NCBI GenBank assembly: GCA_937884725.1
Contig: CAKZYH010000535.1
Span: 1 to 51,452 of the forward strand
DNA: 51,452 nt
Direction of reading: 5' to 3'
Origin: an uncultured Rhodobacteraceae bacterium
Lineage (GTDB): Bacteria; Pseudomonadota; Alphaproteobacteria; Rhizobiales; Amorphaceae
A program made the position numbers and the translations under genes. The notes beneath the pieces are model-generated. The model ran no database searches, was not told where the DNA came from, and was given only the letters and a program-made list of their open reading frames with translations. This document shows positions 1,238 through 24,895 of the stretch, one piece after another (the first letter of the stretch is position 1; each line of letters begins with the position of its first letter).

Positions 1238-1246
1238 GTTGTTGCC

Positions 1247-2700: not shown

Positions 2701-3560
2701 GCGCTGGCGCGTTCTTCGGGCTTGTCAGAGGCGCGGTCGACGAGGCAGTCGCTGGCGCGCTCGCGATACTGGTTGAAGATCGCTTGCATTGTTGAGGCTT
2801 CGTCTTCGCCCTCTTCGACCACGCGCAGCTGCGGCTTTTTCGATGGATCCAACCGGATGTCTTGGGTGATCGTGGAGCCGTAGGCCTGCGGTGCTTGGGG
2901 ATCGCGGCGGGCTTTGTCGACCATCAGGATGCGGGTGCCGAGCGTAAAAGCTTCGCCGATGTCGTGGGTGACCATGACGATGGGCATCTCATTGCGCTGC
3001 CACAGGTCGAGGATGAGGCGGTGCATGGCCTTCTTTGTCGACTGGTCGAGGGCGCCGAAGGGTTCGTCGAGCAGCAGGACCTTTGGCTCCATGATGAGCG
3101 CTTGGGCGATGGCGAGGCGCTGCTGCATGCCGCCTGAGAGTTGGGTGGGGTATTTTTTGACGTGGTCGATGAGGCCGACTTCGGCGAGGAGGGTTTTGGC
3201 TTTGTCGGCGAGGGCGCGGCGGCGGGCGCCCCAGAGGCGGCCCGTGAAGGGGGCGGCCGCGAGTTGGGGGCCCATCATGACGTTGTCGAGGACAGTGCGA
3301 TGGGGGAAGACGGAGTAGCGCTGGAAGACGACGCCGCGGTCGGGTTGGGGTTCGGGGTCGATGGGGACGCCGTCGATCAGGATTTGGCCGCGGGTTGGGA
3401 TCTCCTGGGAGAGCAGGAGGCGCAAGAGAGTCGTCTTTCCGGCGCCGGATGGGCCGAGGATGACCGCGAATTCGTGGTCGGGCAGGGTCGCGTTGACGTT
3501 CTCGAGGACGACGCAGTCGCCGTAGTTTTTGCCGAGGCCCTCGATGGCGATTTCGGTCAT
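2697..3560 (-). CDS. ABC transporter ATP-binding protein (NitT/TauT type, urea-carboxylase-associated transporter)
   Basis: Walker A GPSGAGKT, LSGGM, LLLDEPF, VTHD; VVFQRYSVFPH and C-terminal DPQAPQAYGSTITQD are typical of this subfamily. Confidence 0.9.
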   Translation of the reverse strand: MTEIAIEGLGKNYGDCVVLENVNATLPDHEFAVILGPSGAGKTTLLRLLLSQEIPTRGQILIDGVPIDPEPQPDRGVVFQRYSVFPHRTVLDNVMMGPQLAAAPFTGRLWGARRRALADKAKTLLAEVGLIDHVKKYPTQLSGGMQQRLAIAQALIMEPKVLLLDEPFGALDQSTKKAMHRLILDLWQRNEMPIVMVTHDIGEAFTLGTRILMVDKARRDPQAPQAYGSTITQDIRLDPSKKPQLRVVEEGEDEASTMQAIFNQYRERASDCLVDRASDKPEERASA

Positions 3561-4387
3561 GCGGCGCGGTCCAGATAATACCAGCGGGATGTGGTGCGGG
3601 CGGCTTTTGAGAAGGCGTAATCCATGAGGAAGGCGAGGAGCGTGATCCAGGCGACGTAGGGTAGGATGACGTCCATGGACAGGAACCGGCGGACGAGGAA
3701 GATGCGGTAGCCAAGGCCGCCTTCGGACGCGATGGCCTCAGCCGCGATGAGGAAGAGCCATGTGGCGCCCAGCGACAGGCGCAGCGAATCGAACAGGCGC
3801 GGGATGACCTGCGGGAACACCACGTGGACAATCATTTGCCAGGTGGAGGCGCCCAAGGTTTGCGCCTTGATGAGCTGTTCGCGTGGGATGGCGATCACTT
3901 CCAGCATGATATCGCGCGTGAGGAACGGCGCGATGCCGAAGACGATGAGGACGATTTTGGAGGTTTCGCCGAGGCCAAAGATGATGAAGAGGATCGGCAG
4001 AACCGCCAGCGGCGGGATGAGGGCGAAGGCCGCGATGAAGGGGCCGAAGAGGGCGCGAAAGGTCGGCAGGAAGGCGACCGGGATGCCGATGACGAGGCCG
4101 ATCACGGCCGAAATGGAGAGGCCGATGAAGATGCGCTGAAGGCTGATCAGCGTGTCGGTCCAGAAGACATATTCGCCGGTGCGGCGGTTTTCCGTGAAGG
4201 CGAGTGCGTGGATGGCGTCGGCGAAGGAGCCGAACGAGGGCATCAACTTGTCCTGCGGGTTTTCCGTCAGGCGGATGTCTGAGCCGATGGCGTAGATGAC
4301 CAGGCACAGGCCGAACGGCAGGAGCGCCAGCAGGATTGCGGACGGGCGGCTCGGCGAATAGTTGATGGCGCGTTTCATTCGGCCCAT
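3557..4387 (-). CDS. ABC transporter permease (NitT/TauT type)
   Basis: Multiple TM segments, EAA-like loop KAQTLGAS, WLFLIAAEAIASEGGLGYRIFLVRR; start could be 4378. Confidence 0.9.
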   Translation of the reverse strand: MGRMKRAINYSPSRPSAILLALLPFGLCLVIYAIGSDIRLTENPQDKLMPSFGSFADAIHALAFTENRRTGEYVFWTDTLISLQRIFIGLSISAVIGLVIGIPVAFLPTFRALFGPFIAAFALIPPLAVLPILFIIFGLGETSKIVLIVFGIAPFLTRDIMLEVIAIPREQLIKAQTLGASTWQMIVHVVFPQVIPRLFDSLRLSLGATWLFLIAAEAIASEGGLGYRIFLVRRFLSMDVILPYVAWITLLAFLMDYAFSKAARTTSRWYYLDRAA

Positions 4388-4392
4388 CCCGC

Positions 4393-4418
4393 AAAACGGG
4401 CGGCCGCATGGGCCGCCC
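4393..4418 (-). terminator. GC-rich stem-loop after the substrate-binding gene (mRNA stabiliser or leaky terminator)
   Basis: Minus strand GGGCGGCC-CATGC-GGCCGCCC followed by GTTTT, between the SBP and permease genes. Confidence 0.55.
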
Positions 4419-4444
4419 TCAGCTTCATCATAGGGCGCAGATGC

Positions 4445-5521
4445 CTAGAGTTGGCCTTCGACGGCCATCTTCGTGAACTCGGCGTTGATGCGCAGTTTCA
4501 CGTTCTCTGGATCGCCCAGGATGGTGCCGTCGGGGAACTCGATGCCGACAAAGTCTTTGCTCGCCGCCATCTCGCCGAAAAGGCCGACGTCGAAGGAGAA
4601 GGTGCGCACGAAGTCCCAGGTGGTTTGGTGGCGCTTGGAGGTGAGGAGCTCGTAGGCCTCCTGCGCTTCGTAGTACATTTTGGTGGAGTCGAGCTGGGCT
4701 TGGTACTCTTCCACCGAGCTGCCGGACATGTCGGCGAGGTCGGCGATCATGGAGGCTTGGGCCTCTTCGCCCTTGGCGCCGGACATGATTTCCATGGTTT
4801 CGTACCAGGCGCCGACGAAGGCTTTGACGAAGTCGGGGTGCGCTTCGACGGTGTCGGTGTGGAACAGCATCACGTCGACGATTTCCTCAGGCGTTGAGGA
4901 GGAATCGAAGATCATCGAGGAGCCTTCGACGCTGTTGTTCATCGTGAGCAGCATCGGGTTCCACGCCACGGCGTGCTGGATTTCGTCGGATCCAACGTAG
5001 GCGGGCGTGATGTCGGCATCAGTGATGTTGACGGTGTTCACATCGCGCAGCGACATGCCGTTTTCTTCCAGCGCGCGGCTGAGGAGGTAGTGCGACACGG
5101 TGAGTTCGAAGAGGTGGATGGTCTCGCCTTCGAAGTCGGCGATGCTTTCCGCGCTCTTGGAGAGGATGCCGTCGTTGCCGTTGGAGAAGTCGCCCGCCAG
5201 CGCGATGGTGGTGTCGACGCCGCCGGCTGCGGGGATCGTGAGGCCGTCCATGGAGGCGACGGACATGCCGTCGAGGTCGCGGGCGACGAACTGGTTGATG
5301 CCGCCGATATAGTCGTTGACCTGGATGACCTCGATGTCGACGTCGTACTTCTCTTCCCACTTGTCGAGGATGCCGTTCTCTTCCATCCAGCCGTAGGGCA
5401 TGAAGCCGACATAGATGTTGTAGCCGATGCGGAAGGTGCGGTCCTCGTCGGCGAGGGCGGCCGGCGCGAGTGGCGCTGTGGCAAGCATGGTCGCGGCGAG
5501 GGCCGCAAGGGTTAGACGCAT
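4445..5521 (-). CDS. Putative urea/guanidine-type ABC transporter substrate-binding protein (TIGR03427-like)
   Basis: Start re-assigned to MRLTLAALAATMLATAPLAPAALA (signal peptide; TGATG overlap with creatininase). IYVGFMPY, MDGLTIPAAGGVDTT, GDFSNGNDG, VSHYLL and LGDPENVKLR are characteristic of the family. Confidence 0.85.
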   Translation of the reverse strand: MRLTLAALAATMLATAPLAPAALADEDRTFRIGYNIYVGFMPYGWMEENGILDKWEEKYDVDIEVIQVNDYIGGINQFVARDLDGMSVASMDGLTIPAAGGVDTTIALAGDFSNGNDGILSKSAESIADFEGETIHLFELTVSHYLLSRALEENGMSLRDVNTVNITDADITPAYVGSDEIQHAVAWNPMLLTMNNSVEGSSMIFDSSSTPEEIVDVMLFHTDTVEAHPDFVKAFVGAWYETMEIMSGAKGEEAQASMIADLADMSGSSVEEYQAQLDSTKMYYEAQEAYELLTSKRHQTTWDFVRTFSFDVGLFGEMAASKDFVGIEFPDGTILGDPENVKLRINAEFTKMAVEGQL

Positions 5522-6306
5522 CAAAGTTGTCCTCTCTCGGGGTGGGTCTGGAGTGAGTTGGCCGGGCCTGGCGGGAGTGTTGGCCAGTCTTCGGCAAGAG
5601 CTTCGGTGAGCCAGGAGGCGAGATCCTCGACGATGGTCTGGGTCATGTGCGCGCCGTCGTCCGCTGAGGCGCGCGAGGGGTGCCCGACGACGCCGGTGGG
5701 GGTGGTAGCGGGCATGGCGTAGGAGAATTTTGCGCCGGGCGTGACGTCGGGGACGTCGTGAGCCTCGGCCATGCGGACCATCTCGGGGCGCAGGTGGAGG
5801 AGGATCGAGGTTTCGCCCTGGTTGGCGTGGATGTCGTCCCCGTCGCGGAAGTAGAGGGCGCCGACGCGGCCTGAGATGTCCCACAGGCCCATGGTGGCGA
5901 AGCGCGCTTCTGGGAACTCAAAGCGCAGCTGGAGGATGGCGCTGCGCAGCGGGGCGTCGTTGGTGCCGTGGCCGGAGAGGAAGAGAAGCTTGGTGAGGCC
6001 GTTGGCGACGGCCCAGCGGCCTAGCTCGACGGCGACTGTGGTGAGCGTCGTCGGGTGGAGCGAGAAGGTGCCGGGCCACTTGGCGGTGTGGCCGAGCGAG
6101 CAGCCGTAGGCGAGGGGCGGCAGGCTGAGGACGTTGGCGCGGTCGGCCGCGAGGTCAGCCAAGGTTGCGGCGCTGATGGTGTCGCAGCCGGTGGCAAGGT
6201 GCGGGCCGTGCTGTTCGGTGGCGCCCACGGGCAGGACGGCGAGATCACGGCCGGCGGCGATTAGTGCGCCGATTTCATCGCTCGTCATCAGGTCCCAACG
6301 GGGCAT
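5521..6306 (-). CDS. Creatininase family amidohydrolase
   Basis: LPVGATEQHGPHL..GCD, SLGH, GHGTN, HANQGETS, TGVVGHP motifs; AGGAGG RBS upstream of ATG 6306. Confidence 0.9.
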   Translation of the reverse strand: MPRWDLMTSDEIGALIAAGRDLAVLPVGATEQHGPHLATGCDTISAATLADLAADRANVLSLPPLAYGCSLGHTAKWPGTFSLHPTTLTTVAVELGRWAVANGLTKLLFLSGHGTNDAPLRSAILQLRFEFPEARFATMGLWDISGRVGALYFRDGDDIHANQGETSILLHLRPEMVRMAEAHDVPDVTPGAKFSYAMPATTPTGVVGHPSRASADDGAHMTQTIVEDLASWLTEALAEDWPTLPPGPANSLQTHPERGQL

Positions 6307-6333
6307 TCGCGTCCTCCTAGAACCGTTTGAAGC

Positions 6334-6350
6334 TGCAACGGGCGTGCCAG
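6334..6350 (-). promoter_or_regulatory. Sigma54 (-24/-12) promoter for the creatininase operon
   Basis: Minus strand CTGGCACGCCCGTTGCA matches TGGCAC-N5-TTGCA exactly, 28 nt upstream of the start codon. Confidence 0.85.
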
Positions 6351-6391
6351 GAGCTTGCGGCGTGGTGGCCTCGGTTCCAGGCTTTGCCTGA

Positions 6392-6407
6392 TGGCCTTGG
6401 GCTTGCA
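6392..6407 (+). promoter_or_regulatory. Sigma54 (-24/-12) promoter for the glutamine-synthetase-like gene
   Basis: TGGCCTTGGGCTTGCA has GG-N10-GC spacing with TTGCA, about 30 nt upstream of ATG 6437 and its GAGGAG RBS. Confidence 0.65.
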
Positions 6408-6436
6408 GCCCAGCGGCCTCAGACGAGGAGCTATCG

Positions 6437-7828
6437 ATGAACGATCCGGAACGGGTGGCGGAGGTGCGGGCAGTGTTGGAGGCCGCTGGGGTGGAGTATT
6501 GTTTTGCCACCTATGTGGATATTCACGGCGTTGCTAAGGCGAAGGCTGTGCCGCTCGCCTCGTTTGAGAAGATGTGCGCTGGATCTGAGCTGTTTACGGT
6601 CGGCGCTATGGAAGGAATGGGGCTCGTTGGGCCGGAAAAGGACGAGTGCGCTGTTGTCCCCGATCTCGGAAGTTTGACTATTTTTCCGTGGGATAGCAGG
6701 TTTGCTTGGTTTGCTGGCGATCTTTATTACCACGGCGAGCCTTATCAGAACTGTAGCCGGGTGATTCTGAAGCGCGCGTTGGCGAAGGCGGCGGACATGG
6801 GGTTTGGCTTCAACCTTGGCGTTGAGACTGAGTTTTATGTCTTCCGCGATGAGGCGGGCAAGCAGCCGCTGGCGGAGCGGCGGCACATGGGCATGGTGCC
6901 GGCATACGATGTTGACCAGACGCTACAGGCGATGCCGTATTTGGAGCGCATGGTGAGCGCGATGAATGCGCTCGGCTGGGATGTCTACTCGTTTGACGCT
7001 GAGGGTGGGCACGGCCAGCACGAGTTTGATTTTGCCTACGCCGATGCGCTGACGATGGCTGATCGGCTGACGTTTTTTCGCTTTATGGCGAAGACCATTG
7101 CGCGGGAGATGGGGCTTTACGCGTCGTTTATGCCCAAGCCCTTTGCGGCCGATTTTCGCTCAGGCGCGCACTTCAACATGTCGCTCTTTGAGGTTGGATC
7201 CGGCGCAAACTTGTTTGCTGATCGGGGCGGGGCGCTGGCTGCAGAGTACGGGATTGATGTGCCGGATCTGGCCTATCATTTCGTCGGTGGGCTGCTTGAG
7301 CATGCCGATGCGGTGACGGCGGTGACTAACCCGACGCACAACTCCTATAAGGGGCTGCTTGCCAAGGGCGAGATGGTGGATGTGAGCTGGGCGCCGGTCC
7401 TTCGCACGTACGGCAAGAATAACCGCTCCGCGATGCTGCGCTTGCCCATGAACAGGCCGTGCGTCGAGAACCGGGCACCTGATATTGCGGCGAATTTTTA
7501 TCTGGGTGCTGCGATGTCGCTCGCGGCGGGGCTCGATGGGATTGAGCGGGCCGTCGATCCCGGTGCGCCGATGAACGACAACCTTTATCTCACGCTGGGC
7601 GGAGCGAGTGCGTCGCGTAAGATTGCGCGGACCGATGGCGGGTATGTGGAGCGGTTGCCGCGCACGATGATCGAGGCGCTGGAGGCGTTTGAGTTGGATC
7701 CTATCGCTGCCGAGGCGCTGGGGCCGGAGATGCGCGACATCTACCTGGGCTGGAAATTGCGCGAATGGGAGCGCGATTTTTATAGCGTGGACGATGGCGA
7801 GCGGGCGCGGGTGCTTCACCTCATTTGA
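6437..7828 (+). CDS. glnT: Type III glutamine synthetase-like / gamma-glutamyl-amine ligase (GlnT/GmaS-like)
   Basis: YVDIHGVAKAKAVP N-terminus, LGVETEFY, GQHEFDF, FMPKPF..SGAHFNMS, NSYK, NNRSAMLR, ENRAPD..ANFYL. Confidence 0.8.
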   Translation: MNDPERVAEVRAVLEAAGVEYCFATYVDIHGVAKAKAVPLASFEKMCAGSELFTVGAMEGMGLVGPEKDECAVVPDLGSLTIFPWDSRFAWFAGDLYYHGEPYQNCSRVILKRALAKAADMGFGFNLGVETEFYVFRDEAGKQPLAERRHMGMVPAYDVDQTLQAMPYLERMVSAMNALGWDVYSFDAEGGHGQHEFDFAYADALTMADRLTFFRFMAKTIAREMGLYASFMPKPFAADFRSGAHFNMSLFEVGSGANLFADRGGALAAEYGIDVPDLAYHFVGGLLEHADAVTAVTNPTHNSYKGLLAKGEMVDVSWAPVLRTYGKNNRSAMLRLPMNRPCVENRAPDIAANFYLGAAMSLAAGLDGIERAVDPGAPMNDNLYLTLGGASASRKIARTDGGYVERLPRTMIEALEAFELDPIAAEALGPEMRDIYLGWKLREWERDFYSVDDGERARVLHLI

Positions 7829-7850
7829 GGCACCCGCCCCCGGGCGTCGG

Positions 7851-8954
7851 TTAGGCGGCGCGGGCGCCGCTGACGGCTTCTGTCACGTAGGCCTGGAACT
7901 CGTGGACGTAGACTTCCAGCCAGTCGTGCAGGTAGCCGGGTTCGGCTGACGCGAAGTTGGCGCCGTCTTGGGCGCGCTCCACCATGTCTTTGTCCTCCTC
8001 CGTCGCGATTTCGATGATCTTTGTCACCTCGGCGATGAAGGCTTTCGGATCGGCTTCGCCCGCCATGGTTTCCGGCGCGAAGGAGAGGCCCCAGCGGGCG
8101 TTGGTCTTGTTGGCGGCCTTTGGCTCCAACGACATCCACCACATGAAATTGGCGTCGATGGCGGCGAGACCGTTGGGGTACAGCCCGATGACGTGGAACT
8201 TGTTGCGGTCTTCCGCCGTCAGCCGCGGGTTGTGCATCGGCGGCAAGTCTTTGGGGCGGTAGGAGTTGGAGTGGATCGAGAAGAACTCGTGGCCAGTGGG
8301 GCCTTGCTCGGCGAGCCGCGTTGGGTTGGTGGGGCCGATGGAGCCCTTGTGCGCGTAGGTGGTGTGGTAGCTTTCGATGAAGTTCTCGATGACGAACTTC
8401 CAGTTGCCGTCCCACTCTTCCTCGTGGACCACGTGGCGGTCCTGCCAGCCATCAAGACCGTAGGGTTCGACGAGTGCGGCGAGGGGGCTAAGGCGCTCTG
8501 AGACGGAGGCGAGCGATTTGTCGCGGGCGACGAAGATGAAGCCGAGATATTCTTCGCACGCGAGCTCTTCGAGATAGAGGCTTTTGGTTTCGACGTTACA
8601 GAAACCCTGGCCGTCGGGGACGCCGACGAGCTGACCGGCCGTGCTGTAGGTCCAGGAGTGATAGGGGCAGACGATGCTGCTCGCGTTGCCTGTGCCGTCG
8701 AGGAGGCGGGCATACCGGTGCAGGCAGAAGTTGGCGAAGGCCTTCAGGCTGCCGTCCTTCTGGCGCACGACCGCGATGGGGCGCAGGCCAAGCCGGGCAG
8801 TCATGTAGTCGCCGGGGTTCGGGACGCAGCCTGAGCGGCCGATGGTGATCCAGCCTTTGTCGAACAGCTCTGTTTGTTCGGCGGTGAAGATCTCAGGATC
8901 GGTGTAGTCGCTCTGCAAGGTGGCGCGCAGGCGGTGTTTTTGACGTTCGAGCAT
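7851..8954 (-). CDS. Rieske non-heme iron oxygenase alpha subunit (choline/carnitine monooxygenase or N-demethylase-like)
   Basis: Rieske ligands CLHR..CPYH, NWKFVIENFIESYH...H, EED; start re-assigned to MLERQKH with GGAG RBS. Confidence 0.9.
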   Translation of the reverse strand: MLERQKHRLRATLQSDYTDPEIFTAEQTELFDKGWITIGRSGCVPNPGDYMTARLGLRPIAVVRQKDGSLKAFANFCLHRYARLLDGTGNASSIVCPYHSWTYSTAGQLVGVPDGQGFCNVETKSLYLEELACEEYLGFIFVARDKSLASVSERLSPLAALVEPYGLDGWQDRHVVHEEEWDGNWKFVIENFIESYHTTYAHKGSIGPTNPTRLAEQGPTGHEFFSIHSNSYRPKDLPPMHNPRLTAEDRNKFHVIGLYPNGLAAIDANFMWWMSLEPKAANKTNARWGLSFAPETMAGEADPKAFIAEVTKIIEIATEEDKDMVERAQDGANFASAEPGYLHDWLEVYVHEFQAYVTEAVSGARAA

Positions 8955-9033
8955 GGCGAGATCTCCATCAGGCGATCTCGGACATTTAATTGGAACAACA
9001 CCAAGGTGATGATGAAATTGCGCGCAGGGCCGC

Positions 9034-9693
9034 TTAATTTTGCGGCTTATTGCTTTGGCGCGCAGGCCGGCCTGCCGTTGGGAAGGTTTTTGTTGGCTCG
9101 TACGTCGCGAAGCTTGTGAGGGTTTGTGCGTCGCACTCGCGCTGCCAGCGGGAGGTTTGGGTGACCGCTGTGGCGACGCGGTAGGCGGCCCGGTAGCGCA
9201 AGGTTTGGGCGTTGGTTTCCATGGCGATGGTTGCCATGGCCGTGACGATGCCGCCTTGGCGCTCCAGGAGGCGGATGGCGCCGTCCATGGTGCCGCCGGT
9301 TTCCACCCACTGGTCGGCGAGGAGGACGCGGGTTCCGGGTGGAAAGGCTGGCGTGCGCATTTCCATGTCTTGGGTGCGGCCACTGTAGTTACTGAACGAA
9401 ACCTTGTCGGTGTCGACGCACAATTTGCCGGCCTTGCGGATGGGCAAGAAGCCCTTTCCGAGGCGCGCTGCGAGGGCGGCGCCGAGCACAAAGCCCATAG
9501 CGTCGAGGCCGGCGACGACGTCGATCTCGGCTGGGTCGAGGTCGGCGGTGAGGTCGTCGAGGAGGTCGTCGAACGCGGCGGCGTTGATATAGATGGACGT
9601 TGGATCCAGCCAGGCGAATTCTGCGCCCTTGGTGTTGGGCGACATGAGGGCGAGGTACCAGCGGTCGTCGCGTGGGCCTTTGGGGTCTGTCAC
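9034..9693 (-). CDS. Adenine phosphoribosyltransferase-like type I PRTase (atypical DQ motif)
   Basis: VVAGLDAMGF, IRKAGKL, PRPP loop VLLADQWVETGGT; GTG start overlaps the BtpA stop (GTGA). Confidence 0.85.
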   Translation of the reverse strand: MTDPKGPRDDRWYLALMSPNTKGAEFAWLDPTSIYINAAAFDDLLDDLTADLDPAEIDVVAGLDAMGFVLGAALAARLGKGFLPIRKAGKLCVDTDKVSFSNYSGRTQDMEMRTPAFPPGTRVLLADQWVETGGTMDGAIRLLERQGGIVTAMATIAMETNAQTLRYRAAYRVATAVTQTSRWQRECDAQTLTSFATYEPTKTFPTAGRPARQSNKPQN

Positions 9694-10421
9694 GGCGTTT
9701 CGATGGCGGCGTTGAGGGCGGCGAGGCGGGTAGGGTCGATCTCGTAAAAGTCGCCGGCGAAGTTGATCCCGGTGGCGACGAGGATGCAATCCAGCAGCGG
9801 CGCGAAGTCCTTCGCGTTCTGAGGCGTGATGCCGGATGCGACGGCGAGCGGGGTTGATGGCAGAGCGTTGCGGAAGGTTTGGATTTTTGCGGTGTCGGCG
9901 GCCTCGCCGGTCGCGCGGCCGGATGTGGTGACGACGTCCATGAAGGGTGCGGCGCGGCGGGCGGCGGTGGCGAAATCGGCGGGGTCGATGGGGCGCTGCT
10001 TTTTGAAGGCGACGCCGGCGAAGTAGAGGCCCTGCCAGCCACTCTCGCGGCGGGTGCGGGCGATCTCCTCGGCCTCGGGTTGAGCCTCGGTGCGCTCATC
10101 AACGCGCGCGTCATCGGCCCAGAAGGCGTAGAAGGGGGCGCCTTCTGCGGCGAGTTCGGCGAGGACAGGGAAGGCGCTGGCGCCGGACTGGGCGAGGAAG
10201 TTGACGCCGAGCCAAGGGGTGGGGCGGGCCGCGCGGATATCGCGCAGGATCGGCACAAAGTCGGCCATCGGGAAATCGTGGTTGATGAGGAAGATGCCAT
10301 GGCAGCCGGCGGTGGTGGCCTTGTCGATGTTGCGCACCGCCTGCTCTGCGTTTTGCACGTGAATGACGGGCGTGATCAGCGGGCGGGGGGCGGTGCGCAA
10401 AAGGTCAAGAGTGATCGTCAA
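9690..10421 (-). CDS. BtpA/SgcQ family TIM-barrel protein
   Basis: PVIHV, GIFLINH, WLGVNFL, GVAFKKQ, VVTTSGRATG, AVASGITPQN, ILVATG; TTG start uncertain. Confidence 0.78.
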   Translation of the reverse strand: MTITLDLLRTAPRPLITPVIHVQNAEQAVRNIDKATTAGCHGIFLINHDFPMADFVPILRDIRAARPTPWLGVNFLAQSGASAFPVLAELAAEGAPFYAFWADDARVDERTEAQPEAEEIARTRRESGWQGLYFAGVAFKKQRPIDPADFATAARRAAPFMDVVTTSGRATGEAADTAKIQTFRNALPSTPLAVASGITPQNAKDFAPLLDCILVATGINFAGDFYEIDPTRLAALNAAIETP

Positions 10422-10581
10422 TGGCTTGCTCGCGCTCTGGTGGCTGTTGGCCCAGCGCTTGCCTCCAAAGCGCAATGATTGCAACGGCGTTTGACGGCGC
10501 CGGGCGCTGCTGTGACGGTGATTTCCGCGCCGCGCGGCCAGCGCTAGACAGTGCACATAGATGAAAGAGCGAGGATCAGAG

Positions 10582-11703
10582 TTGACCCACACCAAATTCA
10601 CGCGCCGGACACTGCTCGCGGGGACGGCCGGCGTTGCGCTTGCGGCGCCGATGATCAACCGCGCCTGGGCACAGGACCCTGTCGAGATCAACATGCTCGC
10701 CTGGTACGGCCACGCCGAGCCGGACATGGTGGAAGAGTTCGAGGCGGAGAATAACGTCAAGTTCGTGCCGAAATATTATGCCGGCGGCGACAACATGTTG
10801 GCGCTGATCGCGCAGTCGCCGGTGGGCACCTACGACGTCATTCTGTCGGACGCTGAGTTTGTGCAGCAGCTGAATGCGGCCGGCTACATCGAGCCGATGG
10901 ACTCCTCGCTGTTCCCGTTCGATGACTTTTGGCCTGAGTACCAGAACTTTCCGGGGCACTGGACGGGCGATCAGCTGTGGTCGGTGATGGTGCGCTTTGG
11001 TCTGCTCGGCGTAGCGTACAACACCGATGCGCTGACCCGCGATGAGGCGATGAGCTACAACGCTTATTGGAACGACAAGGTGGCCGGCAAAGTGGGCCAC
11101 TTTGATTGGCACCTGCCGAGCCTTGGGCAGATGTCGCTGCTGAATGGCAACCGCAGTCCCTCGCCGTACGACATTGACGAAGCGGCCTGGAAGGCGGTGC
11201 AGGAGAAGACGCTGACGCTGAAGCCGCAGGTGGGCGGATACTTCGACTATGGCGGCACGTTTGCCTCGCTGAAGAATGGCGAGATGCTGGCGATGGCTGG
11301 GATTGGCGACTGGATCACCGCGGTGCTGCGCAAGGACGGCGCGCCGGTGGACAGCGTTATTCCTGAAGAGGGCGGCATTCAGTGGACCGAGAGCTATTCC
11401 ATCGGGAAGGGCTCCACGAAGGCTGAGCTCGTGAACAAGTTCATCCAATACATGCTGAGCCCGCGCGGCCAGGTGCGCTCCATTCAGATGGCGGCCTATC
11501 CGGGTCTGTCGCCCACCAAGTCTGGCTGGAAGGCGATCCAGGAGGCGAACCCTGCGGAGGCGGAGCGCTCCGGGTTGATCGAGGGCGCCGAGCAAAGCCC
11601 GATCAAGCTGTTGTCGGAAAACCGGGTGTTCCTGCGCGATATTCCGCGTCAGCAGTCGTTGGAAGACTGGAACGACTTCTGGTCGGAATACAAAACGGCC
11701 TAA
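10582..11703 (+). CDS. Polyamine-type (PotD/PotF-like) ABC substrate-binding protein with Tat signal
   Basis: TRRTLL twin-arginine signal, EEFEAENNVK, YDVILSD, IPEEGG..W; TTG start after GAGGA RBS (alternative ATG 10561). Confidence 0.85.
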   Translation: MTHTKFTRRTLLAGTAGVALAAPMINRAWAQDPVEINMLAWYGHAEPDMVEEFEAENNVKFVPKYYAGGDNMLALIAQSPVGTYDVILSDAEFVQQLNAAGYIEPMDSSLFPFDDFWPEYQNFPGHWTGDQLWSVMVRFGLLGVAYNTDALTRDEAMSYNAYWNDKVAGKVGHFDWHLPSLGQMSLLNGNRSPSPYDIDEAAWKAVQEKTLTLKPQVGGYFDYGGTFASLKNGEMLAMAGIGDWITAVLRKDGAPVDSVIPEEGGIQWTESYSIGKGSTKAELVNKFIQYMLSPRGQVRSIQMAAYPGLSPTKSGWKAIQEANPAEAERSGLIEGAEQSPIKLLSENRVFLRDIPRQQSLEDWNDFWSEYKTA

Positions 11704-11760
11704 TTGATCGCCGCGCAGGGATTCGGCGCGGCGTCCCTTTGCGGAGTATTGCTGCAGCTT

Positions 11761-12600
11761 ATGCGCATTGACGGCTACCGATACACCTGGCGTTTGCCGC
11801 TGATTGTTTGGCAGGCGCTGTTCTTTATCGGGCCGCTGATGCTGATGGTCGCGATGTCGTTTTGGCTTGTGCGCAACTACCGCATGACGCCGGACTTCGT
11901 GTTCGACAACTGGGACAGGATGATGTCCCGAAGCTTTTTCTGGGACGCCTATGAAGTGACTTTGGTCCGCGCATGTGTGGCGGCGGTGCTGGCGACGTTG
12001 ATTGCGTTTCCGGCGTCCTATGCACTGGCATTTAAGGTGTCTGATACTGTGCGGCGATGGGCGATCTTCTTGCTCGTTGTGCCGTTTTTTACGTCGTACT
12101 TGGTGCGTATCTATGCCTGGCAGGTGCTGCTTGCTGAAAGTGGGCCGATCAATGCTGTGCTGGGGTTCGGCGGGATCGGGCCGTTCTCGATGCTGAATTC
12201 GGGCTTTGGCACCATGGTCGGCTACATGACGCTGGTGCTGCCGCTGGTGATCATCTTGCAGACGACGAGCCTTGCGGGGATCGACCGGAACCTCATTGAA
12301 GCGGCGTGGAACCTTGGGGCGAGCCCTGTGCGCACGCTGTTTCGGGTGATTATTCCGGCGGCGAAGGTGGGGCTCATTATTGGCGCGGTGTTCGCGTTTA
12401 TCCTGTCGTTTGGTGACTTTGTGAGCCCGTTTTATTTGGGTGGATCCAAACCGCCGACGCTCTCGATCCTGATCATCGATACGACCAAGTCTGGGCAGCA
12501 GTGGCCGCTGGCTGCGGTGGTGGCGATCATGATGATCGTGACGCTGTTTGTGGTGGCGGTTGCGGCCGTCGGTGCGGCGTACGGGCGGCGCAGAAGCTGA
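11761..12600 (+). CDS. Polyamine-type ABC transporter permease (PotB-like)
   Basis: PFFTSYLVRIYAW, IDRNLIEAAWNLGAS, FILSFGDF. Confidence 0.88.
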   Translation: MRIDGYRYTWRLPLIVWQALFFIGPLMLMVAMSFWLVRNYRMTPDFVFDNWDRMMSRSFFWDAYEVTLVRACVAAVLATLIAFPASYALAFKVSDTVRRWAIFLLVVPFFTSYLVRIYAWQVLLAESGPINAVLGFGGIGPFSMLNSGFGTMVGYMTLVLPLVIILQTTSLAGIDRNLIEAAWNLGASPVRTLFRVIIPAAKVGLIIGAVFAFILSFGDFVSPFYLGGSKPPTLSILIIDTTKSGQQWPLAAVVAIMMIVTLFVVAVAAVGAAYGRRRS

Positions 12601-13378
12601 TGGCGCGGGCAGGGGCGGCGTCTTGCTTTATCTTGCCATCGTGTTTGCATTCGTGTTCGCGCCGATCATCACGAGCATGATTTTCTCGTTCAACTCGGAC
12701 CGGTTTCCGACCGTGCCGCTCGGCGAGTTCACCACCCATTGGTATGAGACCGCGTTTTCCCGGCCCGAGGTGTGGGAGGCGATGCAAAACTCGCTGATCG
12801 TGGCGCTGACGGCGGCGACGCTGTCGACCGCGCTCGGATTTGCGACGGCCTACACCGACTATCGCTACAACTTCCGTTTCAAGAGCGCGTACATCGCGCT
12901 GGCATTGCTGCCGCCAACGATACCGCTGGTGATCATGGGGCTTGCGATGCTCGCCTGGCTCGCGCGGCTTGGGATTTCGGGAACGCTGACGGGGATCATT
13001 ATTGCGCACACCGTGATGGCGGCGCCGTTCGCGATGGCGATCTGCCGGCTGCGTTTGTCGCAGATGGATCCGGCCCTGGAGGCTGCGGCGTGGAACCTTG
13101 GCGCGTCGCAGTGGCGGGCGATGCGCTCTGTTGTGGTGCCGTTTTGCTTGCCGGCGATTGTCTCGGCGTTCTGCCTCACCGCGGCGGTGAGCTTTGATGA
13201 GTTCGTGGTGGCTTGGTTCGTGTCTGGCCTCAACAAGACTGTGCCGGTGGTCATTCTGGAAATCTTGCAGGGCAATGTGGATCCGCAGATCAATGCGATT
13301 GGGACCTTTGTGTTTTTGACGTCGATGACGCTGGTTGTCGTGGCGCAGCTCCTCATTACGCGGCGAAGAAAGGCTTGA
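12572..13378 (+). CDS. Polyamine-type ABC transporter permease (PotC-like); start uncertain
   Basis: IFSFN, TTHWY, MDPALEAAAWNLGAS, SFDEF, PQINAI. Confidence 0.85.
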   Translation: MRRTGGAEADGAGRGGVLLYLAIVFAFVFAPIITSMIFSFNSDRFPTVPLGEFTTHWYETAFSRPEVWEAMQNSLIVALTAATLSTALGFATAYTDYRYNFRFKSAYIALALLPPTIPLVIMGLAMLAWLARLGISGTLTGIIIAHTVMAAPFAMAICRLRLSQMDPALEAAAWNLGASQWRAMRSVVVPFCLPAIVSAFCLTAAVSFDEFVVAWFVSGLNKTVPVVILEILQGNVDPQINAIGTFVFLTSMTLVVVAQLLITRRRKA

Positions 13379-13380
13379 GC

Positions 13381-14436
13381 GTGGCGGAACCTTTGGTTCG
13401 GCTGACGGACCTTAAGAAATCCTACGGCAACTTCGAGGCGGTGAAGGGCATCGACCTTGAGATTGCGGCCGGTGAGTTCATCGCGATCATGGGGCCGTCG
13501 GGCTGCGGGAAGACGACGACGCTCAGAATGCTCGCGGGGCTTGAGGCGCCGAGCGGCGGGGAGATTTTCATCGGCGGCGAGCGGATGAACGATGTGCCGG
13601 CGCACGAGCGCGATACACCGATGGTGTGGCAAAGCCTGGCGCTGTTTCCGTTCTTGAGCGTGCGGGAGAACGTTGAGTTTGGGCTGAAGATGCGCGGCCT
13701 GCCTAAGCGGGAGCGGCGGGAACGCGTGGCGGTGTGGCTCGAGCGGCTGGGGCTTGAGGGGTTTGAAAAGCGGCGCGTCGATGCGCTCTCAGGGGGGCAG
13801 CGGCAGAGGGTGGCGCTGGCGCGTTCGCTGGTGACTGAGCCCAAGATGCTGTTTTTGGATGAACCGCTGTCGGCGCTTGATGCGCACCTCGTGATCCGCA
13901 TGCAGGGCGTTTTGTCCAAGCTGCAAAAGGACCTTGGGATCACGTTTGTTTACGTGACGCACTCACAGTCTGAGGCGTTTGCCATGGCCGACCGGGTGGT
14001 CATCATGGGGCATGGCGAGATTGTTCAAACCGGCCGGCCGAAGGACATCTTTCGCGCGCCGCGAAACCGGTTTGTGGCGGAGTTTGTGGGGCGGAACAAC
14101 ATCTTTGCCGGCACCGTGGCGGGTGGTGTGATCAACGTGGATGGCACGCAGCTGCCGTTGCCCGGGGCGGCGGATGGACCCGCCGAGATCGTGGTCGCCG
14201 CAGACCGGATGACGGTGAGTTTGGAGCGGCCCAATACAGCGGCGCTTGAAGCTGAGTTCGTGTCGGAGGAGTTCGTGGGCACCGCGATCATTTGTTACTT
14301 CGAGGGACCGGGCGGGGAGGAACTGAAAGCCCAGGTGACTGAGCGCGAGCTTGAGCTTCTCGCCCCCGAGCCTGGCAAACACTTCTTCCTCAGTTGGGAG
14401 CCGGATGCGCCGCATGTCATGGCGGTGACGAGCTGA
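13381..14436 (+). CDS. Polyamine-type ABC transporter ATP-binding protein (PotA-like)
   Basis: [26 protein letters not shown]-terminal TOBE-like region; GTG start. Confidence 0.9.
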   Translation: MAEPLVRLTDLKKSYGNFEAVKGIDLEIAAGEFIAIMGPSGCGKTTTLRMLAGLEAPSGGEIFIGGERMNDVPAHERDTPMVWQSLALFPFLSVRENVEFGLKMRGLPKRERRERVAVWLERLGLEGFEKRRVDALSGGQRQRVALARSLVTEPKMLFLDEPLSALDAHLVIRMQGVLSKLQKDLGITFVYVTHSQSEAFAMADRVVIMGHGEIVQTGRPKDIFRAPRNRFVAEFVGRNNIFAGTVAGGVINVDGTQLPLPGAADGPAEIVVAADRMTVSLERPNTAALEAEFVSEEFVGTAIICYFEGPGGEELKAQVTERELELLAPEPGKHFFLSWEPDAPHVMAVTS

Positions 14437-15677
14437 TGGCTTTCGACATCATCGTTAAAGGCGGGGTCATGCCGGACGGGACCCGGGCCGACATCGCGAT
14501 CAAGGATGGGGTCATCGCTGCTGTGGATCGCGACATTGCGGCTGAGGCGGCAGAGGTGATCGACGCGGCCGGGAAGCTTGTGAGCCCGCCATTTGTGGAC
14601 GGTCATTTCCACATGGACGCGACGCTCAGCTACGGGCGCCCGCGCGTGAACGCCTCAGGCACGCTGCTGGAGGGCATCGCGTTGTGGGGTGAGCTGAAGC
14701 GCATCCAGACGCGCGATGAGATTGTCGCCCGCGCGCTCGATTATTGTCACATGGCGGTCGGGAACGGGATTCTTGCGATCCGCAGCCATGTGGATGTCAC
14801 CGATCCGACCTTCGCCACAGTGGAAGCACTGCTGGAAGTGCGGGAGCGGGTGAGGGGCACGCTCGACCTTCAACTCGTCGCGTTTCCGCAGGACGGATGG
14901 TACCGCGCTGCGGGCGGAGAGGCTGGGGTCATCCGAGCGCTCGACGCAGGCGTTGATGTGGTGGGCGGCATTCCGCACCACGAGCGGACCATGGCCGATG
15001 GCGCACAATCGGTTCGCGCCGCGTGCCGGATCGCGGCGGACCGCGGTCTGATGGTGGACCTGCACTGTGACGAGACGGACGACCCGTCGAGCCGCCATAT
15101 CGAGACGCTGGTGACTGAGACCGTGAATTGCGGCCTGGAGGGACGCACTGTCGGCTCGCACCTCACATCAATGCACTCGATGGACAACAACTACGCCTCA
15201 AAGCTTACAGCGTTGATTGCCGAGGCGGAGGTTGCGGCCATCCCCAACCCGCTCGTCAACATCACCCTCCAGGGCCGGCACGACACCTACCCGAAGCGCC
15301 GTGGTCTGACGCGCGTGCCGGAGCTGCGTGCAGCTGGCGTGACTGTCGCGTTTGGCCAAGACTGTATCCAGGACCCCTGGTACTCGCTGGGGACCGGCGA
15401 CATGCTGGACGCCGCCCATATGGGCCTTCATGTGGCCCACATGACCGATCCCGCCGGGATGCGTGACGCCTTTGACATGGTCACAGCGACGCCGGCGCAG
15501 ATCCTGGGCCTTCAGTTTGGCCTGGAGCCCGGAAAGCGCGGCAGCCTTGTGGTGCTTGATGCGCCAGACCCCGTCTCGGCCGTGCGCGACCGGCCCGCGC
15601 GGATTGCGGTGGTGTCGGATGGGCGCGTTGTTGCCCGCACCGTTCCGGCACAAACCACAGTCATTGCCGCCTTCTAG
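14436..15677 (+). CDS. Cytosine deaminase-like amidohydrolase (CodA/creatinine deaminase family)
   Basis: HFHMD, SGTLLEGIALW, IRSHVD, AFPQDG, GGIPH, LHCDETDDP, SHLTSMHSMD, FGQDC..DPWY. Confidence 0.88.
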   Translation: MAFDIIVKGGVMPDGTRADIAIKDGVIAAVDRDIAAEAAEVIDAAGKLVSPPFVDGHFHMDATLSYGRPRVNASGTLLEGIALWGELKRIQTRDEIVARALDYCHMAVGNGILAIRSHVDVTDPTFATVEALLEVRERVRGTLDLQLVAFPQDGWYRAAGGEAGVIRALDAGVDVVGGIPHHERTMADGAQSVRAACRIAADRGLMVDLHCDETDDPSSRHIETLVTETVNCGLEGRTVGSHLTSMHSMDNNYASKLTALIAEAEVAAIPNPLVNITLQGRHDTYPKRRGLTRVPELRAAGVTVAFGQDCIQDPWYSLGTGDMLDAAHMGLHVAHMTDPAGMRDAFDMVTATPAQILGLQFGLEPGKRGSLVVLDAPDPVSAVRDRPARIAVVSDGRVVARTVPAQTTVIAAF

Positions 15678-15700
15678 CCACGCCGTTTCCTGGAGGACCC

Positions 15701-16564
15701 ATGCTGCTTCACCCGCTCACCTGGCCGGATGGCAAGCGCGTTGCCGCGTCGATCACGTTCGACATTGATGCCGATAGCCTGATCCGCAATGCGTGCCCGC
15801 AGGATGGGCATTTGCGACTGCCGCAGGTGACGCAGGGGCGGTATGGGCCGACCGTGGCGGTGCCGCGGATTTTGGAGACGTGGCGACGGTTTGGCGTTCG
15901 CCAGACCTTTTTCATTCCGGCCTGGACGATGGAGGCTTATCCCGCGACCGCTGAGGCGAGTTTGAAGGCGGGGCACGAGATCGGGCACCACTCTTGGCGG
16001 CACGAAGACCCGATGGGGCTGACGGACGAACAAGAGGGCGAGCTTTTTGAGCGCGCGCTGGAAACGCACGTGCGCATGACGGGGCGCAAGCCGCGCGGGT
16101 ATCGTGCGCCGGTGTACAACGCGACGCCTGGGGTGATTGCGCGGCTGATCGGGCATGAGTTTTTGTACGACAGCTCGCTGCAGGCCGATGAGATGCCGTA
16201 TCTGATCAAGGCGCCGCAGGGCGAGATCATTGAGCTGCCGCCGCACTGGGGGGCGGATGATTGGCCGCCGTTCGCCCACTTTGAGGAGATCGGCTACCTG
16301 ATGCCGGTGCGTGCGCCGTCCGATGGCATTCGCAACTTCATCGAAGAGTTTGAGGCCGCGCACACTCACGGCGGGTTTTATATGCCTGTGCTGCATCCGT
16401 TTCTAACCGGGCGGCTGGCGCGCTGGATGGTGATGGAGCGGTGGCTGGAGACCATCTTTGAGGCGGGCGATGTGTGGTTTGCGCCGCTGGAGGAGATCGC
16501 GGAGTTTGCCAAGGCGCGGCGCGATGAGCTGCGTGTCGACACCATCGAGGAGCCAGGCGCGTGA
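15701..16564 (+). CDS. Polysaccharide deacetylase family hydrolase (PuuE/HpPgdA-like)
   Basis: TFDID, YGPTVAVPRIL, TFFIP, GHEIGHHSWRHE, GYRAP, YDSS, DDWP, LHPF; no signal peptide. Confidence 0.85.
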   Translation: MLLHPLTWPDGKRVAASITFDIDADSLIRNACPQDGHLRLPQVTQGRYGPTVAVPRILETWRRFGVRQTFFIPAWTMEAYPATAEASLKAGHEIGHHSWRHEDPMGLTDEQEGELFERALETHVRMTGRKPRGYRAPVYNATPGVIARLIGHEFLYDSSLQADEMPYLIKAPQGEIIELPPHWGADDWPPFAHFEEIGYLMPVRAPSDGIRNFIEEFEAAHTHGGFYMPVLHPFLTGRLARWMVMERWLETIFEAGDVWFAPLEEIAEFAKARRDELRVDTIEEPGA

Positions 16565-17580
16565 CCCCCATCGATCCTGACTATTTGCCGATTTCTGGGC
16601 TCGACGTTCCGCGCTTTGCGGGGCTCGCGACGGCGATGCGGCTGCCGGTGCGCTCCGCTGCCGAGCCGCAGGGCGCTGAGATTGGGATTTTGGGCGTTCC
16701 TTATGATGGGGGGACCACCAATCGGCCGGGCACGCGCCATGGGCCGCGGGGGCGCCGGGAAGCGTCGTCGATGATCCGCATGGTCAACCAGGCGACACGG
16801 GTGGCGCCGTTTCACACCGCGCGGGTTGCTGACTTTGGCGATGCGGCTGTGGATCTGACCGACGTGATGACGACGCTGACGCTGATCGAAGATCAGGTGA
16901 CGGCGATGATGAGCGCCGGCGTGACGCCGCTGGTGATGGGGGGCGATCACCTCATCAGTCTACCGGTGCTTCGGGCGGTGGCGAAGGATGAACCGCTTGG
17001 GTTTGTGCACTTTGATGCGCACACCGACCTTAGCTCAGGCTATTTCGGTAAGAGCCAGTATAACCACGGGACGCCGTTTCGGCGGGCCGTGGAGGAGGGG
17101 CTGCTCGATCCTGCGCGGATGATCCAGATTGGGATTCGGGGCACCAGCTATGGCGGTGCTGACCGGGCTTTTGCGGTCGAGCAGGGCATTCGTATCGTCA
17201 CCATCGAGGAGTTTCGCGCGCGGGGGCTTGCCGATGTGATGGCGGAGGCGCGGCAGATTTTGGGGTCGAAGCCGACTTACCTCACGTTCGATATCGATGC
17301 GTTGGATCCCTCGGTGGCGCCGGGGACGGGGACGCCGGAGATTGGCGGCTTTTCCTCCTTTGAGGGGCAGATGATGGTTCGTGCGCTTGACGGGGTCGAT
17401 ATTGTTGCGGCGGACCTTGTGGAGGTGTCGCCACCGTTCGATCCGGCCGGGATCACCTCGTGGACCGGGATTTCAATGCTGTTTGAGATTTTGTGTGTGA
17501 CCGTGACGGCGCTTGCGCGGCGCAAGGGGCGGGACGTGGTGATCTGCGAGGACATTCCTGCGCCGACTTGGGGCGGCTAA
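16561..17580 (+). CDS. Agmatinase-family ureohydrolase (guanidinobutyrase/guanidinopropionase-like)
   Basis: RFAG, GVPYDGGTTNRPG, GGDH, DAHTD, HGTPFRRA, DIDALDP..APGTGTP, EVSPPFD. Confidence 0.9.
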   Translation: MTPIDPDYLPISGLDVPRFAGLATAMRLPVRSAAEPQGAEIGILGVPYDGGTTNRPGTRHGPRGRREASSMIRMVNQATRVAPFHTARVADFGDAAVDLTDVMTTLTLIEDQVTAMMSAGVTPLVMGGDHLISLPVLRAVAKDEPLGFVHFDAHTDLSSGYFGKSQYNHGTPFRRAVEEGLLDPARMIQIGIRGTSYGGADRAFAVEQGIRIVTIEEFRARGLADVMAEARQILGSKPTYLTFDIDALDPSVAPGTGTPEIGGFSSFEGQMMVRALDGVDIVAADLVEVSPPFDPAGITSWTGISMLFEILCVTVTALARRKGRDVVICEDIPAPTWGG

Positions 17581-19597: not shown

Positions 19598-19613
19598 TTG
19601 TGGGAGATTGTTG

Positions 19614-21365: not shown

Positions 21366-21384
21366 GCGGGGCTGACGGGCTGGT

Positions 21385-23186: not shown

Positions 23187-23356
23187 ACGGTGCGGATGCC
23201 CAATCGGGCAGCCATTTCGCAAGTGCACACAAATTGAGCTTGGAATTGTTCGATATTTGAACTTTCGCTTTGGGAGCGGCTCATTTATCGATTTTGTATG
23301 AGCTAGACGAGTTTAGCTCAACAGATTTGCCCCGCCTGAGAATGGCGTGAAGGTTT

Positions 23357-23424: not shown

Positions 23425-23456
23425 CTCCAGTCTGATCGCGGAAGGATATCGGTCCG

Positions 23457-24851: not shown

Positions 24852-24868
24852 CCCAACTCAATCCATCA

Positions 24869-24895
24869 CCGCGCCCCTCACAGTTTGGGGCGCGG
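24869..24895 (+). other. Intercistronic stem-loop after nrtA
   Basis: CCGCGCCCC-N9-GGGGCGCGG with no U-tract; likely an mRNA-stabilising hairpin. Confidence 0.5.

What the first reader, a model, noticed from the sequence alone, without database searches (positions are those of the whole stretch)
7851..17580. BtpA + atypical PRTase + Rieske oxygenase facing an ABC transporter-deaminase-deacetylase-ureohydrolase operon: candidate modified-nucleobase or guanidino-heterocycle pathway
Seen: a divergent pair of units sharing a short intergenic region. Known: CodA-like enzymes deaminate cytosine, isoguanine or creatinine; PuuE-like deacetylases can open cyclic ureides/imides; ureohydrolases release urea; some Rieske enzymes N-demethylate or hydroxylate heterocycles; PRTases ribosylate bases; BtpA/SgcQ has no established reaction that I know of. 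Inference: uptake, oxidation or demethylation, deamination, ring opening and urea release from a non-canonical base, plus a salvage branch. This could assign a function to BtpA/SgcQ. Methylamine from a methylguanidine-type intermediate could feed the neighbouring GS-like ligase, making 1-17.6 kb one system.
Basis: inference. Interest (0 to 1): 0.72.

Follow-up and report, generated by a model that had tools for sequence, protein, structure and literature searches.

The report
Ribose-driven creatinine scavenging gene cluster

Summary
The genes are there as described, but they are two modules, not one pathway. The conserved core is BtpA-like barrel + APRT-like PRTase facing a PotD-fold ABC importer, a deaminase (CodA with Cys at D314, or an Fcy1-type enzyme) and often the PuuE-like hydrolase. 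Barrel and PRTase are neighbours in 100 of 101 loci, often fused, and followed by PRPP synthetase in 4 loci. The importer's sister clade sits with true creatininase and creatinase and has the same predicted pocket, so creatinine is the likeliest cargo (about 0.65), not agmatine or an exotic base. The Rieske enzyme (1 of 80 loci; 0 of 30 core genomes) and the GpuA-like ureohydrolase (4 of 80) are add-ons; in another family the Rieske sits with the left-hand GS-like/uca-ABC block. Best mechanism (0.4, untested): the PRTase ribosylates creatinine and the barrel frees creatine plus ribose-5-phosphate for creatinase, replacing creatininase. Rivals: N-methylhydantoin as substrate, or a cytosine-type base (Upp/URC neighbours). 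The PRTase forms its own clade with hagfish, teleost, lungfish, lizard and hemichordate members. No paper on the pair was found.

The parts
9690..10421 (-). BtpA/SgcQ-related TIM barrel (divergent subfamily), core; predicted to act on a phosphoribosylated substrate
   Evidence: PF03437; AF2 pLDDT 95, eight-strand barrel, best fold matches RPE/TrpA/TrpF/HPS at Z up to 19; invariant N47-H48-D49, D103-D104, K140-K141; fused to the PRTase
9034..9693 (-). APRT-derived type I phosphoribosyltransferase with a DQWxE PRPP loop and W28-L-D-P hood, core
   Evidence: Below all APRT cut-offs; DQWxE in 230 of 253 homologues; own clade with animals and protists
10561..11703 (+). PotD-fold solute-binding protein, likely creatinine-binding, core
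11704..14436 (+). Two permeases (ORFs 11704-12600 and 12548-13378, true starts probably later) and ATPase (13381-14436), core
14436..15677 (+). CodA-type cytosine/creatinine deaminase, Cys310 at E. coli Asp314; replaced by an Fcy1-type deaminase at other loci
   Evidence: NF005748 675 bits, cut-off 438; alignment; Cys in 20 of 20 motif-matched loci
15701..16564 (+). PuuE/PgdA-like CE4 hydrolase, frequent member; predicted hydantoin ring opener
   Evidence: at 26 of 57 full loci
16561..17580 (+). GpuA-like guanidino-acid ureohydrolase, accessory
   Evidence: 370 bits to GpuA, 299 GbuA, 179 SpeB; Tyr161 aligns with GpuA Tyr157; 4 of 80 loci
7851..8954 (-). CntA-like Rieske oxygenase, accessory; belongs with the left block
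10448..10462 (+). sigma54-type -24/-12 motif in front of the ABC operon, where most homologous loci have a LysR gene
   Evidence: LysR; motif at 1 of 91 and 0 of 42 other loci
6335..6406 (.). Two divergent sigma54-type motifs (6335-6349 minus, 6392-6406 plus) for the left block and the GS-like gene
6437..7828 (+). GS-like ligase (GmaS-related, below cut-off), left block
542..6309 (-). Left block: creatininase-family protein (not true creatininase), TIGR03427 uca ABC system, two SDRs, DUF1989

Best explanation
The conserved core is an ABC importer, a deaminase and a co-travelling, often fused PRTase plus phosphate-binding barrel; the importer likely carries creatinine, and the PRTase-barrel pair is predicted to open its ring by spending PRPP, in place of creatininase. 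Steps: (1) The ABC system imports creatinine (inferred, about 0.65; it may also take cytosine). (2) CodA or the Fcy1-type enzyme releases ammonia, giving N-methylhydantoin (family knowledge). The PuuE-like hydrolase would open that ring where present (inferred). (3) In parallel the PRTase would ribosylate creatinine with PRPP. The activated ring would open to creatine ribotide, and the barrel would release creatine and ribose-5-phosphate. Creatinase then gives sarcosine and urea, and Prs recycles the sugar (all inferred; about 0.55 given creatinine). The Rieske, GS-like, creatininase-family and uca-ABC genes are a second guanidino-N module; the ureohydrolase is a local add-on. In this lineage the two modules are joined under sigma54-type control (motifs shown, regulation inferred).
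For: Pair: adjacent in 34/34, 41/42 and 25/25 loci with room; 119 of 120 listed long homologues of the barrel carry the PRTase domain; prs lies directly behind the PRTase at L099, L151, L152, L173. Cargo: 41 of 80 SBP loci carry creatininase (TIGR04448 360 bits, cut-off 235) and 44 carry creatinase (531 bits to solved creatinase). Predicted pocket residues are invariant across 42 creatininase-type and 68 BtpA-type SBPs, mostly kept in SBPs of textbook creatinine clusters (Azoarcus L175; Ancylobacter L178 with CSHase, HyuAB, creatininase), and changed in an Agrobacterium SBP of another context. Both clades share one LysR family. Creatine as product: creatinase follows the PRTase at 7 loci in two lineages and follows a lone barrel gene in Mycoplana; creatinase is in 24/25 PRT-bearing vs 218/326 other genomes of one family (p about 0.001-0.002, kin not independent). 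Creatininase and BtpA share only 1 of 80 SBP loci. The sister genome (96% complete) shows no match for barrel, PRTase or creatinase. Human cells make creatine riboside from creatinine, with PRPP proposed as donor and the enzyme unknown (PMC9282934, passages). PRTase orthologues occur in deuterostomes, which use creatine (recalled).
Against: No substrate was tested. Exclusion of creatininase at genome level is not significant (0/25 vs 11/326, p=1), and the locus-level split follows the SBP tree, so it is one event. G126 has two creatininase homologues and the fused pair in one operon. Three Arenicellales genomes, G472, G644 and G952 (75% complete) have the pair but no creatinase match. Upp or URC uracil genes flank the core in three lineages, and both deaminase types are known to accept 5-methylcytosine (PMC9081823, passage). 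Creatinine hydrolysis needs no energy input (known), so spending PRPP is unexplained. The Mycoplana genome has the barrel without a PRTase match. Pocket positions rest on a distant alignment to PotD and recalled ligand residues.
Confidence: 0.4

Rival explanations
1. Same creatinine cargo, but the pair acts after the deaminase: the PRTase ribosylates N-methylhydantoin and the barrel (with or without the PuuE-like enzyme) opens and releases it, replacing ATP-dependent HyuAB.
For: A deaminase is at 47 of 57 full loci, never both types. In G126 the fused pair directly follows the deaminase in an operon that already has creatininases, the slot HyuAB/CSHase fill in Ancylobacter. An Ancylobacter-type HyuA (58% identity or more) is in only 3 of 66 BtpA-clade genomes. 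N-methylhydantoin is otherwise a harmful dead end (PMC8864220, passage). This step has a known energy need (recalled).
Against: The window's own genome has HyuA (60%), HyuB (65%) and CSHase (85%). HyuA is also rare in controls (7/41 and 0/39). Ten of 57 loci lack a deaminase. The PuuE-like enzyme works with CodA without the pair at L010 and L014. It does not explain the animal orthologues.
Confidence: 0.2
2. The BtpA-type importer carries cytosine or a modified cytosine (5-methyl, N4-acetyl, 3-methyl). The deaminase feeds uracil to Upp/URC, the CE4 enzyme deacylates, and PRTase plus barrel salvage or strip the modified base as a nucleotide, like OPRT plus ODCase.
For: The Fcy1-type deaminase is close to yeast cytosine deaminase (143 bits), and CodA lacks D314; both types accept 5-methylcytosine. 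Upp lies directly behind the PRTase at L024 and L147, URC1/URC4/Upp at L026, L030, L033, L035 and L195, and pydB/pydC at L143 and L144. BtpA-type SBPs form their own clade (support 97).
Against: The pocket is unchanged from the creatininase clade. It leaves the creatinase operons and enrichment unexplained. The PRTase derives from APRT and has an acid at the HGPRT general-base position (alignment; role recalled), which suits an imidazole-type NH.
Confidence: 0.25
3. One reading: Rieske demethylation or hydroxylation of an N-methyl guanidino heterocycle, then ring opening, urea release and methylamine capture by the GS-like ligase.
For: Same gene order in the sister genome; three conserved sigma54-type motifs; the two Rieske orthologues outside the genus are in genomes that also carry the core elsewhere; GpuA-type active site.
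Against: Rieske at 1/80 loci and in 0/30 core genomes; ureohydrolase 4/80; no reductase gene in 1-17.6 kb; GS-like below the GmaS-type cut-off; the sister genome keeps the order without the barrel and PRTase.
Confidence: 0.1
4. Polyamine or agmatine uptake with an ordinary agmatinase and a spare APRT.
For: PotD fold is the best structural match; TIGR01230 agmatinase cut-off is passed (189 vs 174).
Against: Only 17-23% identity to PotD/PotF; PotD acids replaced; no polyamine genes among recurring neighbours; PRTase outside the APRT clade.
Confidence: 0.05

Closest known systems
Bacterial creatinine catabolism (creatininase-creatinase-sarcosine oxidase; CodA-HyuAB-CSHase)
   Same: Same importer family, LysR and deaminase; creatinase in operon or genome.
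   Different: No true creatininase or HyuAB at the locus; a PRTase-barrel pair and a CE4 hydrolase instead.
URC uracil pathway (Urc6/Upp, Urc1, Urc4)
   Same: A base is phosphoribosylated before breakdown, through ribosylurea (PMC7530994, passage); URC genes flank the core in two lineages.
   Different: Unrelated enzymes (APRT-like PRTase, TIM barrel), and probably another ring.
Adenine phosphoribosyltransferase
   Same: Type I PRT fold, RK..K motif, nearest solved relatives.
   Different: DD-L-x-A loop is DQ-W-x-E, hood FRD is WLD, SRG is AMG, EY loop is NY; separate clade.
BtpA/SgcQ family
   Same: PF03437 hit above cut-off; phosphate-binding barrel.
   Different: 39-42 bits against NCBIfam cut-offs of 153 and 400; own motifs; tied to a PRTase.
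GpuA 3-guanidinopropionase (P. aeruginosa)
   Same: 370 bits, metal motifs, Tyr157 equivalent.
   Different: Context is a creatinine-type operon; substrate untested.

Membership tests
APRT | NCBIfam apt/PRK02304 cut-off | tested here: not met
   93-101 bits vs 125-186
APRT | DD-L-x-ATGGT loop and EY flexible loop | tested here: not met
   DQWVETGGT and NYS
APRT | Adenine + PRPP to AMP | not testable with these tools
   Needs assay
BtpA/SgcQ | Pfam PF03437 gathering score | tested here: met
   38.8 vs 30 bits
BtpA/SgcQ | TIGR00259 / NF045918 cut-off | tested here: not met
   38.7 vs 153; 42.4 vs 400
Ribulose-phosphate-binding barrel superfamily | (beta/alpha)8 fold with Gly-rich loops after strands 6-8 | tested here: met
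   no single family stands out (Z 19.0-15.5)
PotD/PotF polyamine SBP | NCBIfam cut-off and amine-binding acids (E36, D168, E171; recalled) | tested here: not met
   67 vs 582 bits; G50, W183, P186 at those places
Creatininase-linked SBP subfamily | Shared predicted pocket residues | tested here: met
Creatininase-linked SBP subfamily | Creatinine binding | not testable with these tools
   No characterised member found
CodA (AHS cytosine deaminase) | Metal and catalytic residues; NF005748 cut-off | tested here: met
   675 vs 438 bits; HxH, HCDE, H, D kept
CodA lacking D314 (5-methylcytosine-accepting) | No Asp at position 314 | tested here: met
   Cys310; rule from PMC9081823
PuuE allantoinase | TIGR03212 cut-off | tested here: not met
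   62 vs 425 bits
Agmatinase SpeB | Closest to SpeB; PRK02190 cut-off | tested here: inconclusive
   Passes TIGR01230, fails PRK02190 (278 vs 302); far closer to GpuA
GmaS / type III GS (TIGR03105) | Cut-off 469.6 | tested here: not met
   437.8 bits; 35% identical to the GS beside Mgs-type genes at L022
Creatininase (TIGR04448), window 5521-6309 | Cut-off 235 | tested here: not met
   103.7 bits

The most novel reading that the evidence does not exclude
The DQWxE PRTase clade is a creatinine phosphoribosyltransferase. With its barrel partner it forms a PRPP-driven creatinine-to-creatine route in marine bacteria and protists, and the stand-alone 'APRT-like' gene of fish, lungfish, lizards, hagfish and hemichordates does the same first step. 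That would be the first reaction for a BtpA/SgcQ-type barrel and a dedicated enzyme for the chemistry behind creatine riboside.
Probability: 0.3. Interest if true: 0.88.

Novelty: new variant of a known kind. Interest (0 to 1): 0.63.

Why it matters
It turns two unassigned families into a cheap, direct test: a barrel family for which I found no reaction in print, and a PRTase that databases call APRT although its active-site loops differ and which is kept in many vertebrates. It also proposes a cargo for an ABC importer found at 549 places in species-level genomes and labelled spermidine/putrescine in the plasmid records read here. If PRPP-driven creatinine or N-methylhydantoin breakdown is real, it is a second case, after URC, of ribosylating a ring in order to destroy it, and it bears on creatinine as a marine nitrogen source.

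Tried and rejected
Rfam: no RNA family at gathering score in the window. Earlier scan notes: nothing by sequence or words. RNA runs: no RNA holder listed, so co-expression was not tested. Complex prediction of barrel with PRTase: no verdict. SBP model: only PotD-type folds, no ligand clue. Barrel fold search: many tied barrel families. Genome-level exclusion of creatininase or HyuAB: not significant, because both are rare in controls. sigma54 motif as a general feature of the core: rejected (1/91 and 0/42). Isoguanine as cargo: set aside because the swapped-in Fcy1-type deaminase has a cytosine-size site (pocket size recalled). The Ancylobacter deaminase is only 37% identical over 79 aa to the Fcy1-type one, so it does not show that the latter accepts creatinine. 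Literature: no paper on the pair; none on a 5-methylcytosine deaminase with creatinine; none on the fish gene name I recalled; the primary 5-methylcytosine deaminase paper is not held; one search gave five listings for 'cytosine phosphoribosyltransferase', not read. The library lacks most subscription papers. The L146 SBP row was a wrongly picked ORF with a very long branch and was dropped. First clustering of neighbours was swamped by shadow ORFs and redone.
Full report
Observation. BtpA-like (10421-9690), PRTase (9693-9034) and Rieske (8954-7851) run leftward. SBP, two permeases, ATPase, CodA, a CE4 hydrolase and a ureohydrolase run rightward from 10561 to 17580, across a 139-bp gap. To the left lie a GS-like gene (6437-7828, converging on the Rieske) and a leftward block: creatininase-family protein, TIGR03427 ABC system, two SDRs and DUF1989.

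What travels together. I took the best 80 of 549 SBP relatives in species-level genomes and mapped neighbours. At 40% identity the PRTase is at 34, BtpA at 35, CodA at 23, the CE4 enzyme at 7, the ureohydrolase at 4 and the Rieske at 1. Anchoring on the PRTase instead (55 metagenome loci; 25 genome and plasmid loci) gave the same core. BtpA is adjacent in 100 of 101 loci with room, and the SBP is near in 44 of 48 PRT-anchored loci with room. Of 57 loci long enough to judge, 47 have a deaminase (CodA or Fcy1-type, never both) and 26 the CE4 enzyme. The metagenome loci include near-duplicates. The PRTase is rare overall: 2 of 400 class genomes besides the own, 25 of 351 in one family. Of the 120 listed long homologues of the barrel (262 found), 119 carry the PRTase domain, so the two are often fused. 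PRPP synthetase follows the PRTase directly at four loci.

The Rieske is separate. Orthologues were found in 3 of 200 other order genomes. One, G016, matches L010 by coordinates and size; it has the whole 1-17.6 kb order without barrel and PRTase. In G952 the Rieske sits with the uca ABC system, the creatininase-family gene, the GS-like gene and an allophanate hydrolase. It is not found in any of 30 BtpA-PRT genomes at the same threshold. In its favour, G952 and G909 both carry the core elsewhere. Three TGGC-N7-TTGC motifs sit in the two divergent gaps, correctly oriented, and all three are kept in L010 (8 matches in the window against 3.6 expected). Other loci have a LysR gene there and lack the motif. 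I read this as two N-scavenging modules joined under sigma54-type control in this lineage; the consensus is recalled and regulation is inferred.

The cargo. Half of the SBP loci have true creatininase (41 of 80) and creatinase (44 of 80), some with sarcosine oxidase. BtpA-type SBPs form one clade (68 rows, SH-aLRT 97). Its fixed differences from the creatininase-type SBPs are 15 mostly conservative changes, while W48, Y49, H51, D97, E99, R145, D182, W183, H184, D250, W251, E277 and Y313 are invariant in both (one bad row dropped). These positions map on the PotD pocket (PotD residues recalled), and the PotD amine-binding acids are gone. Of ten plasmid regions read, three carry creatininase beside this SBP: Azoarcus with creatinase and HyuAB, Ancylobacter with CSHase (248 bits to 1NBA), HyuAB and a deaminase, and Microvirga with creatinase and sarcosine oxidase. 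Two pair the SBP with amidase, a CE4 enzyme and DUF1989; three show other or unclear contexts, and the Agrobacterium SBP among them has a changed pocket; two are BtpA-PRT loci. CodA has Cys at D314 here and in 20 of 20 motif-matched loci. A review says enzymes without D314, and yeast Fcy1, accept 5-methylcytosine (PMC9081823, passages). CodA of C. glutamicum degrades creatinine to N-methylhydantoin, a dead end (PMC8864220, passages); that it lacks D314 is recalled. Against a creatinine-only reading, Upp or URC genes flank the core in three lineages and pyd genes in one. An importer and deaminase that accept both cyclic amidines would fit all of this. I put creatinine as the main cargo at about 0.65.

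The pair. The barrel model is confident (pLDDT 95) and matches the phosphate-binding barrels RPE, TrpA, TrpF and HPS with no clear winner. A PRTase feeding such a barrel is the logic of TrpD-TrpF and OPRT-ODCase (known). The PRTase is APRT-derived but has DQWxE in 230 of 253 homologues, a WLDP hood and an NY loop. It forms a clade (96, FastTree) apart from canonical APRT, holding diplonemid members (one fused to the barrel) and a deuterostome subclade (98) with hemichordate, hagfish, lungfish, teleost and lizard proteins. Creatinase follows it at 7 loci in two lineages and is in 24 of 25 PRT-bearing genomes against 218 of 326 others in an even family sample (tallied by hand; Fisher p 0.001-0.002; kin and habitat inflate this). 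In the 43 genomes checked by handle, creatinase was in 38 and a creatininase homologue in 3, but creatininase is rare anyway, so exclusion is not shown. Human cells ribosylate creatinine to creatine riboside, with PRPP proposed as donor and the mechanism unresolved (PMC9282934, passages). The URC pathway is the precedent for ribosylation before breakdown (PMC7530994, passages). I therefore commit, at 0.4 overall, to PRPP-driven conversion of creatinine to creatine. N-methylhydantoin as substrate (0.2) fits the deaminase linkage and G126, but the own genome already has HyuAB and CSHase. A cytosine-type substrate stands at 0.25. Six genomes with the pair lack a creatinase match, which is the main fact against the best reading.

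Other window genes. The ureohydrolase is closest to GpuA and keeps its Tyr157 equivalent, pointing to a short guanidino acid (residue role recalled). At L012 and L021 it comes with two SDRs and an NMT1-type ABC system. The GS-like and creatininase-family proteins miss their family cut-offs.

Papers seen: passages of PMC3141670, PMC9282934, PMC9081823, PMC8864220, PMC12299217 and PMC7530994; listings only for the rest. No supplements were read. Searches found no description of this pair or importer; the library omits most subscription journals.

Verdict. Observation confirmed; interpretation partly supported. This is a new variant of creatinine-type nitrogen scavenging with an unassigned two-enzyme module. 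Interest 0.63; novel case probability 0.3, interest 0.88 if true.

Noticed in passing
L174 (Variovorax plasmid) 4694-11943 and L176 (Leisingera plasmid) 7908-14770: The same SBP family with amidase, a CE4 hydrolase and a single DUF1989 but no deaminase: possibly a third route, with DUF1989 as deiminase.
   Followed up: partly
L012 611-6427 and L021 973-6203; window 1247-2700: A separate module of NMT1/SsuA-type ABC, two SDRs and a GpuA-like ureohydrolase (with or without the CE4 enzyme) that recurs next to the core; substrate unknown.
   Followed up: no
L159 8599-9720 and its homologue at L148: A protein that looks like glycine amidinotransferase (recalled likeness; no Pfam or NCBIfam hit at the thresholds used) lies beside the core in two genomes.
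   Followed up: no
L022 2103-8009; L074 5-814: A GS with glutamate-synthase-like genes (GmaS/Mgs-type methylamine cluster) lies directly beyond the PRTase at L022; a related GS is near L074.
   Followed up: no
L192 275-7390 (G952): uca ABC, creatininase-family gene, GS-like gene, Rieske and allophanate hydrolase form a conserved block of unknown guanidino substrate.
   Followed up: partly
G000 contigs C207/C160, C411, C359, C98, C513: The own genome holds HyuA, HyuB, CSHase, creatinase, Upp-URC1-URC4 and a 42% creatininase homologue beside a ureohydrolase; HyuA occurs in seven family copies.
   Followed up: partly
window 17861-34208: Complete nitrate assimilation cluster: nitrite reductase, flavoprotein, ANTAR regulator with sensor, nitrate ABC system, nitrate reductase, CysG.
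   Followed up: no
window 34194-39288: HPPD, homogentisate dioxygenase and fumarylacetoacetase (tyrosine breakdown) with an aldehyde dehydrogenase.
   Followed up: no
P0406, P0413, P0416 and relatives: A sister group of APRT-like proteins with DEWIE/DDWIE loops, some fused to other domains; function unknown.
   Followed up: no
L144 8604-9869 (and its homologue at L143): A TnpB gene sits directly upstream of a partial PRTase at the head of a pydC-pydB-ABC operon.
   Followed up: no
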